Assembly: GCF_017348835.2 (NCBI RefSeq)
Contig: NZ_CP071375.1
DNA length: 64,000 nt
Origin: Escherichia coli
GTDB taxonomy: Bacteria; Pseudomonadota; Gammaproteobacteria; Enterobacterales; Enterobacteriaceae
Direction: 5' to 3' (one strand)
Positions 48,501-51,500 of the stretch are shown piece after piece. The first letter of the stretch is position 1. Each line of letters begins with the position of its first letter. The position numbers were made by a program.

Positions 48501-51500
48501 GCTTCGGGCTGTTTGCGCATTGATGCTGAGATACGCTTCCAGTCTTCGCGATCCTTGTCGATAACCTCATTTGTCGCCCAGCGATGGATGGTACCGTCAA
48601 TGTTTCCTGCATCCACATCACCGGGCCAGAGGGCGCAGGCCAGTTCATTGTCGAGTGTTTTCCATGTCTGTTTGTATTCGCGGCGAATGGCAACAGTGAC
48701 AGCCCCGGTTTTTTCAGCAGCGTTTTCAGTGTTCTGTTGGTTGACTCTGGCGCGGGTGAGATCAACAACAGACGTGTATTTTCCGGTTTCCTTGCGTTCA
48801 CCTTCGCGACGTTTTTTCCAGATGCGCATCTCTGCCTGAATTTCAGGCCATTTAGCGCCAGGCTCACATTTATGCTTAACCCACCCGATGGCATGCAGTT
48901 TAAGTTCAGGATACATGGCGTTAACTTCTGGCATTTTCATCAACGCTTCAACGATATGTCCGCCGAATGTTGCCATGTCTTCCTGTAGTAATTCCTGTGC
49001 GCTAATCACCATATCAACGGTGATGTTTTCGCATGTGTCGAATTTAACCAGGACTGCGTTCTGTACTTCAGGGGACAGCTTGTCAAAATTGACGTTCATC
49101 GGATCGGATTCTGGTTCGACCGGTACAAAGGAAGCTGACTCCTCATCCCAGCGGTTTTCCTGCATATATTCGGTATCCCAGGAATCGAGGGCAGGGCGGG
49201 GTATGCCGGGTTTATCCTCGCAGACAATAAATTTATAAGCGCAGTCCTGAGCTGCCGGGAATTGCTCCAGAAATTGCCAGTGAAATTTTGCGCGTGCGCG
49301 ACGCTCATCACCGGCTTCAATGGCAGTGGCCACCGCAACAGCGCTATCTTCTTTTATGGCCTGTTCGTCAGGAATAGCAGCGCAAATAAAGATTTTACTC
49401 ATTGTGTTTTAACCTCATTACAGATTTAAGGGTGAACAAATCCCTGCCATTGCTGGCATATAAAAATGAAACCGGATATTAATTACGGTGCTGTTTTAAA
49501 GTCCTGCCGGTATTTCGTTATTATTAGTGTGAGTAGTTTTATCTACCGGATAACAGTTACCGGGAATTTTTTGTTCTGCTGCTGCAGCCATGCATTCTTT
49601 CATTGAACCGTATAAGCCAGTCACCAGCTCAAGAGATTCGCCGGAAACAAGATAAACTGTCAGAACGAGTGCAAATGTTGTATTCATTGTTTATATCCTT
49701 TTTGCAGCAGGTCCAGACGAGCCAGCATTGAAGGAATGCATACTTCATTTAACAGGTCCTGCTCGAGTTTTCTCTGCTTAATGGCGTCTTCAATAAATGT
49801 TTTGTCTCCAGTGATAACGCCAATTTCGAAACGAAGTTCAGACGTGCTGGCATTACATGATAACTTTTCCATTATCGCGTCCTCAACAATGAATTTTGTG
49901 ATGCGGTGCCTGGTGCCTCCAGGTGACGTTAACCAGTTAACAATTAACGCCGGATACAGAGCATTCTCGTTACTCAGCAAATGACCGCTTTACCGATTTA
50001 ACTGTTCCGCGTGCGCTGAGCCGCATTCACCGCATCACAAAATTCACTTTTAAAAAAGGGCGGCAGAGCAGTCACGGAGTAAAACTGATACCGCCAAATG
50101 TCACCAGAATATTGATAACAGAGGGCGTTGCAGCGGGGTTGTCACTTAAGCGTATGGTCAACCTGACAACCCGGTGTCCTCAACGGGGAAAGAATAACCC
50201 CGCCATACTTACCGCCGCGCCATTTCGCGGATTGCCACAACCGGAAGCGCACGGTCGAATTAAATTTAACGACGGCTCTAAGGGAGAAGGACTTCGCCGT
50301 GCACTTTCGTGTTATGCCCTGACTTTTCAGGGATATATCCTTTCAGTAAACTGTCAGTGCCGGATTCTTATCTGTGTCCGGCGCACGACCACACGTAGCA
50401 GCGTGTTGGTCTCCATTTTTAATTCAGCCCTTAATGGAGGATAAAATGCCAAACAAACCATGCCCTGCCTGTAACGCTCTTTCTGGCTTTTTAGAGAAGG
50501 GCGGTTATTACATTTTTAACTGTCCAGAACATGTTGAATTTCATATATCAAAACTTGACAGTATCATTACAAAGCCAAATCAGTATCAGTCTGATTTACT
50601 GAATAAAGAGTTAAACGCCGCCCGAGATTAAGGGCGTAGTGGCCCATTAAAAATATTGCAAAGACCAACTATTGTTGAACTGGATTAAACCAGTAATTCT
50701 CTATTGCTCTTATTGTTACCATCGGATGATTGCCGGGGGTTATTTTAAGTTCGGGAGGAAAAGGCTCTCCATCAGCAGCCATCATTGAGTATGTGAAATC
50801 CGCCGACGCAGTCCCTTTCATGATAATTCCGAATTTTTCAAGTAATGAGAGCAGTTCCGGTAATCCTGTGTCATCTGAATAACTTTCCTCATAGAAAGAA
50901 GCGATTGCCGCAGGAGATGACAGTTCTCGCTCTGCAATTTTTTTGTAGTTTTCCAGAGTTCTTTTTTTGAATACTTTTCCTCGACATGAAAACCCATCAC
51001 CGAGGCAATCCGCTTTGCAGTTTCTTCAGTATTCTGGTTGTTTGTTACCGAAACAGAGTACAATCCGGTAAACGCATCGCGCACATTACGAGCCATATTA
51101 TCAATGTATTTCTTCGTTGCAGATTCTAATTCAACTTCGTTCAGACGTTGGTGAAGTGCATGTGCTGCAATTTCCTGGATTTCTTTTAGTAAATCTTTAA
51201 ATTCCATCTTTAACTCCGTTAGTCGTTAGATTTTGCCGAACTGGAAAGCGCCTGTTTAAACTCACTGAAGCTGAGAGCTTCCTCGCCTTCGGCAAGGCCT
51301 TTGAACCGCCCCGGGTTTCCTGGAGAGTGTTTTATCTGTGAACTCAGGCTGCCAGATCATTATTTCCGATGGAAGCATAATAAGCTTTTTCTGCTTCTGC
51401 CGGAGGAATATGGCCCAGCCTTTCCAGCAATCGTCGATTGTTATACCAGTCCACCCACGTTAGTGTGGCCAGTTCCACTTCTGCACGGTTTTTCCAGCTC

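What the first reader, a model, noticed from the sequence alone, without database searches (positions are those of the whole stretch)
50659..51207. Prophage early gene with a hidden downstream frame: probable frameshift at a homopolymer
The annotated 129-aa ORF is followed in a different frame by 97 stop-free codons ending at 50659, which is unlikely by chance at this composition. The frames switch at T7 runs on the plus strand. The full-length product would be about 180 aa of unknown function in the kil/early-left region.
Basis: seen in the sequence. Interest (0 to 1): 0.45.

Follow-up and report, generated by a model that had tools for sequence, protein, structure and literature searches.

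The report
Frameshifted prophage gene, one base lost
A prophage gene of unknown function lost one A from a run of eight, which cut its 179-residue protein to a 129-residue annotated ORF; this is an ordinary frameshift mutation, not programmed recoding.

Summary
On the minus strand, the 129-aa ORF (51207..50818) is overlapped in the -1 frame by 118 stop-free codons (51025..50672, stop at 50671-50669).

Joining the two frames at the second A7 run (50938-50944) gives a 179-aa protein. It is collinear, end to end, with single-ORF homologues of 177-186 aa from E. coli and Salmonella.

Those close relatives have A8 where the window has A7, so the window allele is a 1-nt deletion in a homopolymer. 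The hidden frame is truly coding in the family: dN/dS is about 0.2 at dS above 1.1.

The frameshift is not a sequencing error. All 385 complete E. coli genomes with this allele (O157:H7, O121:H19, O103 and others) carry exactly A7, and none carries A8.

It is not a programmed frameshift:
- Every homologue outside that near-identical allele group (about 93% protein identity or less) is unshifted.
- There is no stimulatory RNA structure after the site (z = -0.12).
- The A_AAA_AAA phasing follows automatically from deleting one A from the A8 run.

Low-level rescue by ribosomal or transcriptional slippage is plausible (order 0.1-1%) but untested. The protein's function remains unknown. The finding is ordinary; its main value is correcting annotation.

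The parts
50938..51207 (-). 5' part of the gene: codons 1-90 (M1..K90) in the original frame. The N-terminal helical module is shared with many prophage proteins.
   Evidence: Aligns with residues 1-90 of the intact homologues. phrog_1363 and phrog_2151 match the N-terminus only.
50938..50944 (-). A7 run (T7 on the plus strand): the site of the 1-nt deletion. Intact relatives have A8 here. In frame 0 it reads AC[A AAA AAA] TTG.
   Evidence: DNA alignments. Census of 385/385 genomes with A7 and 0 with A8.
50669..50938 (-). Hidden 3' part of the gene: 89 codons in the -1 frame (I91..Q179; 50938..50672) plus the TAG stop at 50671-50669.
   Evidence: Many invariant residues in alignment A2. dN/dS about 0.2 against the L010 type at dS above 1.1.
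50818..50937 (-). Out-of-frame tail of the annotated 129-aa ORF: 39 codons (LQSENCHLL...NSELS) plus the TGA stop.
   Evidence: Absent from all intact homologues.
50962..50968 (-). First A7 run (TC[A AAA AAA] GAA). It is in frame in the window and in all intact homologues, so it is not the switch site.
   Evidence: Fusion at this run (fus1) does not reproduce the homologues' KKEFWKTTKK segment.
50958..50958 (-). Lineage-private substitution: C in the window against T in EDL933. It changes the otherwise invariant F84 to L.
51302..52611 (-). IS3-family insertion sequence, 1310 bp, with a 3-bp AAG target duplication, inserted in ydfB just upstream of the gene. It carries a true programmed -1 frameshift signal (ALIL pseudoknot, 52160-52276).
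   Evidence: Junction mapping against EDL933. Rfam ALIL at 121.5 bits. PGAP annotation of the PE164 locus L001 (100% identical over the window 50560-51300 query).
51219..51301 (-). 3' remnant of ydfB, cut off from its 5' part by the insertion sequence.
50446..50631 (+). Convergent 61-aa cysteine-rich ORF (phrog_10133), downstream neighbour on the opposite strand.
50058..50109 (-). DicF small RNA. It places the gene in the ydfA-ydfB-X-dicF-dicB early-left operon of a Qin-like prophage.
   Evidence: Rfam RF00039, 77 bits.

Best explanation
The locus is a frameshift-inactivated copy of a gene for a protein of about 179 aa. The gene lies between ydfB and dicF in the early-left (dicB) operon of a Qin/Rac-like lambdoid prophage.

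The immediate ancestor had an in-frame A8 run (ACA AAA AAA ATT; T-K-K-I). Replication slippage removed one A, leaving A7. Ribosomes now read TTG CAG... after K90 and terminate 39 out-of-frame codons later. This yields the annotated 129-aa product. The last 89 codons remain as an untranslated, still-open frame.

The deletion became fixed in one prophage allele, which then spread among STEC and other E. coli lineages. In the window's lineage an IS3-family element later inserted in ydfB just upstream.

- Shown here: the break point, the A8-to-A7 difference, the single-ORF state and purifying selection in relatives, and the fixity of A7 in 385 genomes.
- Inferred: loss of function of the full-length protein, and its dispensability in the carriers.
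- Inferred from the literature: a small fraction of full-length protein (roughly 0.1-1%) may still arise at the A_AAA_AAA site. This could happen by unprogrammed -1 ribosomal slippage or by insertion of an extra A during transcription.

The biochemical function of the protein is unknown. It has a helical N-terminal module shared with many prophage proteins and a C-terminal module confined to this small family.
For: - Fusing the frames by -1 at 50938-50944 gives 179 aa that align end to end with intact proteins P0001 (91-93% identical), P0002, P0003 and P0004-P0009. These are 177-186 aa, from E. coli and Salmonella.
- DNA alignment: A8 in L006, L003, L005 and L009 against A7 in the window, EDL933, O121:H19 and PE164. 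The deeper L010 type has GCC AAA CGC ATC, with no homopolymer at that site, and is also a single ORF.
- The hidden-frame part has dN/dS of 0.19-0.24 at dS of 1.2-1.4 between the two subtypes.
- 385 of 385 complete genomes with the allele match the A7 57-mer exactly, and none matches the A8 version. EDL933 and O121:H19 encode the identical 129-aa product WP_000394511.1.
- There is no stimulatory structure 3' of the site: MFE -15.9 kcal/mol against a shuffle mean of -15.5, z = -0.12.
- Other public assemblies show further frameshift variants at the same two A runs (P0011, P0017, P0018), which marks them as mutational or error hot spots.
- Literature: A_AAA_AAA without stimulators shifts at more than 0.1%, against a background of about 0.055%, with motif-to-background ratios of 2-10 (PMC4066793).
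Against: - The hidden frame is still completely open, and the site is a perfectly phased X_XXY_YYZ heptamer. That is what a recoding site would look like. Both features are also expected from a recent deletion in an A8 run: the alleles are at least 99% identical, so no time for decay is visible.
- The frameshifted allele is by far the commonest form in public data. This could reflect selection, or simply the heavy sequencing of O157:H7.
- No expression data were available to measure how much full-length product is made.
Confidence: 0.88

Rival explanations
1. Programmed -1 ribosomal frameshift. The A_AAA_AAA heptamer would be a recoding signal that makes a fixed ratio of a 129-aa and a 179-aa product, as in dnaX or IS3-family transposases.
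For: The heptamer is in the correct zero-frame phase, and a -1 shift restores the conserved frame. The A7 allele is invariant in 385 genomes.
Against: - The two-frame arrangement is confined to one group of alleles at least 99% identical. All other homologues, from 93% down to 61% identity, are single ORFs.
- There is no downstream structure (z = -0.12), and no Shine-Dalgarno-like stimulator is visible upstream.
- The phasing is an automatic by-product of deleting one A from ACA AAA AAA ATT.
- The true programmed site in the neighbouring insertion sequence has a strong pseudoknot, 121.5 bits. That shows what a real signal looks like in this same window.
Confidence: 0.04
2. Adventitious rescue ('pseudo-pseudogene'). 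The mutation is real, but transcriptional insertion of an A or spontaneous -1 slippage at A7 supplies a low, biologically meaningful dose of full-length protein. The down-tuned allele would be what selection retains.
For: - Compensatory frameshifting at single-nucleotide deletions, often in A/T runs, was detected for many Salmonella pseudogenes (PMC9122581).
- Transcriptional slippage restores the reading frame in some mRNAs at frameshift mutations (PMC1088944; its example is a deletion in human apoB with an extra A inserted in an A8 run).
- The allele is widespread with an intact hidden frame.
Against: - There is no evidence of selection on the hidden frame after the deletion, because the alleles are near-identical.
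- The window lineage carries F84L at an otherwise invariant residue and M163 where every intact homologue has R or K.
- An insertion sequence now sits upstream in the operon, which suggests decay rather than maintenance.
- A run of 7 is short for efficient RNA polymerase slippage in E. coli (my own knowledge; the known cases cited use 8-9 or more).
Confidence: 0.07
3. Sequencing or assembly error in a homopolymer: the real genome has A8 and an intact gene.
For: Homopolymers are classic error sites. Some database variants at these runs (P0011, P0017, P0018) may be such errors.
Against: 385 independent complete genomes from many laboratories and platforms all show exactly A7, and none shows A8.
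Confidence: 0.005
4. Phase-variable contingency locus: the run length switches reversibly between A7 (off) and A8 (on) within populations.
For: A6, A7 and A8 states exist across public sequences.
Against: There is no length polymorphism among the 385 close relatives. The tract is short for a contingency locus. The A8 alleles sit on distinct, diverged backgrounds rather than being revertants.
Confidence: 0.005

Closest known systems
Frameshifted 'pseudo-pseudogenes' of Salmonella enterica (Feng et al. 2022, PMC9122581)
   Same: A single-nucleotide deletion, often in an A/T mononucleotide repeat, disrupts an otherwise intact ORF. Low-level compensatory frameshifting is possible without a dedicated signal.
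   Different: No expression evidence exists here. The gene is a prophage accessory gene of unknown function rather than a chromosomal gene.
IS3-family orfA-orfB programmed -1 frameshift (the element at window 51302-52611)
   Same: An A-rich slippery site where a -1 shift joins two overlapping frames into a longer product.
   Different: The insertion sequence has a conserved stimulatory pseudoknot (ALIL, 121.5 bits), and per PMC4066793 such slippery motifs recur across IS elements. The finding has no stimulator, and its relatives are unshifted.
Transcriptional-slippage genes and rescues (T. thermophilus dnaX with A9, Shigella mxiE with a U run, human apoB A8 deletion rescue; Baranov et al. 2005, PMC1088944)
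   Same: A homopolymeric A run where a non-templated extra A in the mRNA would place the two frames in register.
   Different: The run is only 7 long. The arrangement is not conserved, so any slippage here is incidental.
ydfA-ydfB-ydfC-dicF-dicB operon of the E. coli K-12 Qin prophage
   Same: Same operon architecture and flanking genes: dicA-like repressor, ydfA (DUF1391), ydfB, DicF RNA, dicB, DUF1482/ydfD, exonuclease.
   Different: The slot occupied by ydfC (72 aa) in K-12 holds an unrelated gene here: no BLASTP alignment at E up to 100. The STEC version also carries relBE after the repressor.
phrog_2151 / 'Ybl81' 212-aa prophage proteins (e.g. WP_000394548.1 in O145, L002)
   Same: Same genomic position, and a homologous N-terminal module of about 80 aa, 56-59% identical.
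   Different: The C-terminal domain is entirely different (a mosaic exchange), so these proteins say nothing about the hidden frame.

Membership tests
Frameshift pseudogene by homopolymer slippage | Intact single-ORF homologues are collinear across the break. | tested here: met
   P0001-P0009, L009 and L010 align over all 179 positions of the joined product.
Frameshift pseudogene by homopolymer slippage | The indel maps to a mononucleotide run when compared with intact relatives. | tested here: met
   A8 in L003, L005, L006 and L009 against A7 in the window at 50938-50944.
Frameshift pseudogene by homopolymer slippage | The lesion is in the DNA, not a read error. | tested here: met
   385/385 complete genomes have exact A7, and 0 have A8.
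Frameshift pseudogene by homopolymer slippage | The full-length product is absent or strongly reduced. | not testable with these tools
   Needs proteomics, Ribo-seq or reporter fusions.
Programmed -1 ribosomal frameshift (dnaX / IS3 type) | Slippery heptamer X_XXY_YYZ in zero-frame phase. | tested here: met
   AC[A AAA AAA]TTG in frame 0. This phasing is forced by the A8 ancestry.
Programmed -1 ribosomal frameshift (dnaX / IS3 type) | Stimulatory element: a 3' stem-loop or pseudoknot, or a 5' Shine-Dalgarno-like sequence. | tested here: not met
   The 85 nt from the site fold no better than shuffles, z = -0.12. No GGAGG/AGGGGG-like motif in the 20 nt upstream.
Programmed -1 ribosomal frameshift (dnaX / IS3 type) | The two-frame arrangement is conserved in diverged homologues. 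| tested here: not met
   Every homologue outside the allele group that is at least 99% identical is a single ORF.
Transcriptional-slippage recoding site | A long A/T run (typically 9 or more) that is conserved. | tested here: not met
   The run is 7 nt, and relatives have A8 in frame or no run at all. The length criterion comes from PMC1088944 and general knowledge.
Phase-variable contingency locus | Tract-length polymorphism among closely related isolates. | tested here: not met
   No variation in 385 genomes.
phrog_1363 / phrog_2151 prophage protein group (function unknown) | Significant profile match. | tested here: met
   Repaired protein: phrog_1363 at 9e-37 and phrog_2151 at 3e-29, N-terminal residues 1-92 only. 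The hidden-frame 89 aa match no PHROG.

The most novel reading that the evidence does not exclude
The A7 allele is not dead. It would be a selected 'dimmer': most ribosomes make the 129-aa form, and a small slipped fraction makes the full 179-aa protein. The success of this allele across STEC lineages would then reflect an advantage of down-tuning a costly early-left prophage gene. A related possibility is a change in translation-coupled polarity on the downstream DicF and dicB.
Probability: 0.06. Interest if true: 0.4.

Novelty: new member of a known kind. Interest (0 to 1): 0.12.

Why it matters
The main value is for annotation.

- RefSeq/PGAP lists the 129-aa product (WP_000394511.1, WP_153645614.1) as an ordinary hypothetical protein, not as a frameshifted pseudogene.
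- The PHROG profile phrog_1363 matches the frameshifted ORF end to end, including its out-of-frame tail. The artefactual sequence has therefore entered a public family model, while the true C-terminal domain has no family.
- Thousands of O157:H7 assemblies carry this allele.

Biologically it is one more example of homopolymer decay in a prophage. It is also a convenient natural A7 substrate, sitting next to a true programmed frameshift in the adjacent insertion sequence, for measuring unprogrammed slippage.

Tried and rejected
- **Fusion at the first A7 run (fus1).** Rejected: homologues read KKEFWKTTKKIAERE, which only fusion at the second run reproduces.
- **The 212-aa O145 protein in the same position (L002) as the intact version.** It shares only the N-terminal ~80 aa, so it says nothing about the hidden frame.
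- **Function by sequence.** All searches below gave only sub-threshold or chance-level hits:
  - Pfam, NCBIfam and PADLOC.
  - A PDB profile search.
  - An exhaustive HMMER scan of 1.84 billion representatives. It found no relatives of the C-terminal domain outside its own 50% cluster, whose other listed pieces are fragments of the same gene family (P0121, P0114).
- **Function by structure.** The AlphaFold2 model built on 12 sequences had a mean pLDDT of 49.6. That is too poor for a fold search, so none was run.
- **Phage genome collection.** Only N-terminal-module matches below 60% identity were found, and no phage carries the C-terminal domain.
- **K-12 YdfC as a homologue.** No similarity.
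- **Test for relaxed constraint in the window lineage.** Counting private changes at otherwise invariant columns gave 3 in the window against 0-6 in the others, which is not distinctive.
- **Literature search by guessed Sakai locus tags and the WP accession.** No papers.
- **Promoter and terminator scan of 50000-51400.** Nothing above shuffle expectation.

Full report
**Observation**

On the minus strand an ATG at 51207 opens a 129-aa ORF that stops at 50820-50818. The -1 frame relative to it is free of stops for 118 codons, 51025..50672, and ends at TAG 50671-50669.

Two A7 runs lie in the overlap: 50962-50968 and 50938-50944 (T7 on the plus strand). In the ORF's frame both read N-N-A AAA AAA.

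The hidden frame ends at 50669, not 50659, and the first run is 50962-50968. Otherwise the description is correct.

In 5000 dinucleotide-preserving shuffles of 50560-51300, a frame open for at least 118 codons appeared 132 times. Two such frames appeared once.

**What the hidden frame is**

I joined the two frames by a -1 step at either run and searched the 5.8-billion-protein collection with the product. Nine clusters cover the whole 179 residues as single proteins:
- P0001 (179 aa, 91%), P0002 (179 aa, 82%) and P0003 (180 aa, 77%).
- P0004-P0009 (177-186 aa, 61-68%), from E. coli and Salmonella enterica.

Their sequence across the junction is ...YSKKEFWKTTKKIAERELLSPAAIASFYEE.... Only fusion at the second run reproduces this: window ...YSKKELWKTTKK|IAERELSSPAAIASFYEE....

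Alignment A2 of 12 intact or repaired proteins shows many invariant residues in the hidden-frame part: SFY, LLSLL, FGIIM, GTA-ADF-YS, PPEL-ITPG-HP, IRAI and WFN. Across the deepest split in the family (window type against the 186-aa L010 type), the hidden-frame part has dN/dS of 0.19-0.24 at dS of 1.2-1.4. It is therefore true coding sequence under purifying selection in the family.

**The lesion**

I fetched the DNA of the intact relatives and aligned it.
- L006, L003, L005 and L009 read AC(A/G)... C-AAAAAAAA-TTGCAG, an A8 run (codons ACA/GCA AAA AAA ATT).
- The window, PE164, EDL933 and an O121:H19 strain read C-AAAAAAA-TTGCAG, an A7 run.
- The L010 type reads GCC AAA CGC ATC, with no homopolymer there, and is also a single ORF.

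So the single-ORF state is ancestral. One subclade acquired an in-frame A8 run, and the window allele lost one A from it. The product is 90 residues in frame (51207..50938), then 39 out-of-frame residues (50937..50821). The last 89 codons (50938..50672) are left unread.

**Real mutation, not an error, and not variable**

I searched 5,426 complete E. coli genomes with a 57-nt probe centred on the run. It matched 385 records at 100% identity. The same probe with A8 matched those 385 at 98.3% and none exactly.

The carriers include O157:H7, O121:H19, O103 and pig and cattle isolates. EDL933 and O121:H19 16-9255 have the identical 129-aa product and identical neighbouring proteins. The frameshifted allele therefore travelled with the prophage module.

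The window differs from EDL933 by one base in 545: 50958, giving L84 for the otherwise invariant F84.

In the protein collection, two members of the 129-aa cluster are each seen on at least 1000 contigs. The intact relatives are seen on one to three.

Intact copies in complete genomes are the A19 strain (L009) and 25 genomes with the 186-aa type, for example O139:H1 (L010).

**Programmed or not**

The A7 run sits as A_AAA_AAA in the zero frame, and a -1 shift restores the conserved frame. That is the anatomy of a -1 recoding site. Three tests argue against a programmed signal.

1. The two-frame arrangement is restricted to one group of alleles at least 99% identical. Every diverged relative is unshifted.
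2. The 85 nt starting at the site fold no better than shuffled sequence: -15.9 against -15.5 ± 3.0 kcal/mol, z = -0.12. No Shine-Dalgarno-like element precedes the site.
3. The phasing follows automatically from deleting one A from ACA AAA AAA ATT.

For contrast, the IS3-family element 100 nt upstream has a true frameshift signal with an ALIL pseudoknot at 121.5 bits.

Phase variation is unlikely because tract length does not vary among the 385 carriers.

**Residual expression (inference)**

- Sharma et al. 2014 measured -1 shifting on all heptamers in E. coli. Without stimulators the background was about 0.055%, shift-prone motifs were 2-10 times that, and A_AA.A_AA.A is listed among motifs above 0.10% (PMC4066793).
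- Baranov et al. 2005 describe rescue of frameshift mutations by insertion of an extra A at a nearby A run during transcription (PMC1088944).
- Feng et al. 2022 found low-level translation of many Salmonella pseudogenes, mostly compensating single-base deletions and often in A/T runs (PMC9122581).

A trace of full-length protein from this allele is therefore plausible. Nothing here shows it, and nothing shows that it matters.

**Context and function**

The gene lies in the early-left operon of a Qin-like prophage. The order is:
- HTH repressor (54001..53600)
- relB and relE
- ydfA (DUF1391)
- ydfB
- this gene
- a convergent 61-aa ORF
- DicF RNA (50058-50109)
- dicB
- a DUF1482 protein
- an 823-aa exonuclease
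- a DUF4224 protein
- integrase

In K-12 the same slot holds the unrelated ydfC.

In the window and in PE164, a 1310-bp IS3-family element with an AAG target duplication (51302..52611) splits ydfB. EDL933 and O121:H19 lack it, so the frameshift came first.

The N-terminal ~60-90 residues form a helical module shared with many prophage proteins that have different C-termini: phrog_1363, phrog_2151, phrog_9419 and the 212-aa 'Ybl81' proteins. The C-terminal domain has no detectable relatives outside its own small family in 1.84 billion representatives. It also has no Pfam, NCBIfam, PADLOC or PDB match. The AlphaFold2 model was too poor to use, with pLDDT 49.6. The function stays unknown; the position suggests an accessory early gene of the moron type.

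**Verdict**

Its practical interest is that the truncated ORF is annotated as a normal protein. It has also shaped a public profile: phrog_1363 matches the frameshifted 129-aa ORF end to end at 170.8 bits, against 127.5 bits over residues 1-92 for the repaired protein.

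Noticed in passing
window 51302-52611 (minus strand): A 1310-bp IS3-family element with a 3-bp AAG target duplication is inserted in ydfB. It is present in the window and in PE164 but absent from EDL933 and O121:H19 16-9255. From memory, the length suggests the IS629/IS1203 group. It separates the frameshifted gene, DicF and dicB from the operon's promoter region.
   Followed up: partly
window 50821-51207 (the 129-aa ORF) against PHROGs: phrog_1363 matches the frameshifted ORF over its full length including the out-of-frame tail (residues 1-129 to profile 1-138 of 139; 170.8 bits). The true 89-aa C-terminus matches no PHROG. A public family profile appears to be built on the frameshift artefact.
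   Followed up: yes
window 50446-50631 (plus strand), extending to about 50688: The convergent cysteine-rich ORF (CPAC...NCPEH; phrog_10133) is 61 aa here, ending at a TAA. In L003, L005 and L006 it is called as 80 aa, overlapping the 3' end of the 179-aa gene by 20 nt. In L003 that codon reads Ser and the same downstream residues follow. Which length is ancestral is unclear; the PHROG profile is 65 long.
   Followed up: partly
proteins P0011, P0016, P0017, P0018: Public assemblies hold further frameshift variants at both A runs of this gene family: an apparent A6 at the second run in P0011, and deletions at the first run in P0017 and P0018. These could be real mutations or homopolymer read errors; this was not resolved.
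   Followed up: no
window 50058-50109 (minus strand): A DicF small RNA (Rfam RF00039, 77 bits) lies about 560 nt downstream of the hidden frame's stop. The premature stop at 50818 lengthens the untranslated stretch ahead of it. Whether this affects DicF or dicB expression through polarity is unknown.
   Followed up: no
window about 53094-53572 (minus strand), by correspondence with L001 and L011: A relB/relE-type toxin-antitoxin pair sits inside the early-left operon, between the repressor gene and ydfA. The K-12 Qin operon does not have it at that place.
   Followed up: no
L002 3019-3657, and the hits: The N-terminal ~60-90 aa module (MEFKDLP..IQEIAAHTLRQRL...NMARNVRDAFTGLY) is joined to at least three unrelated C-terminal domains (179-, 186- and 208-214-aa proteins) in the same prophage slot. 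This is domain shuffling in an uncharacterised family of early genes.
   Followed up: partly
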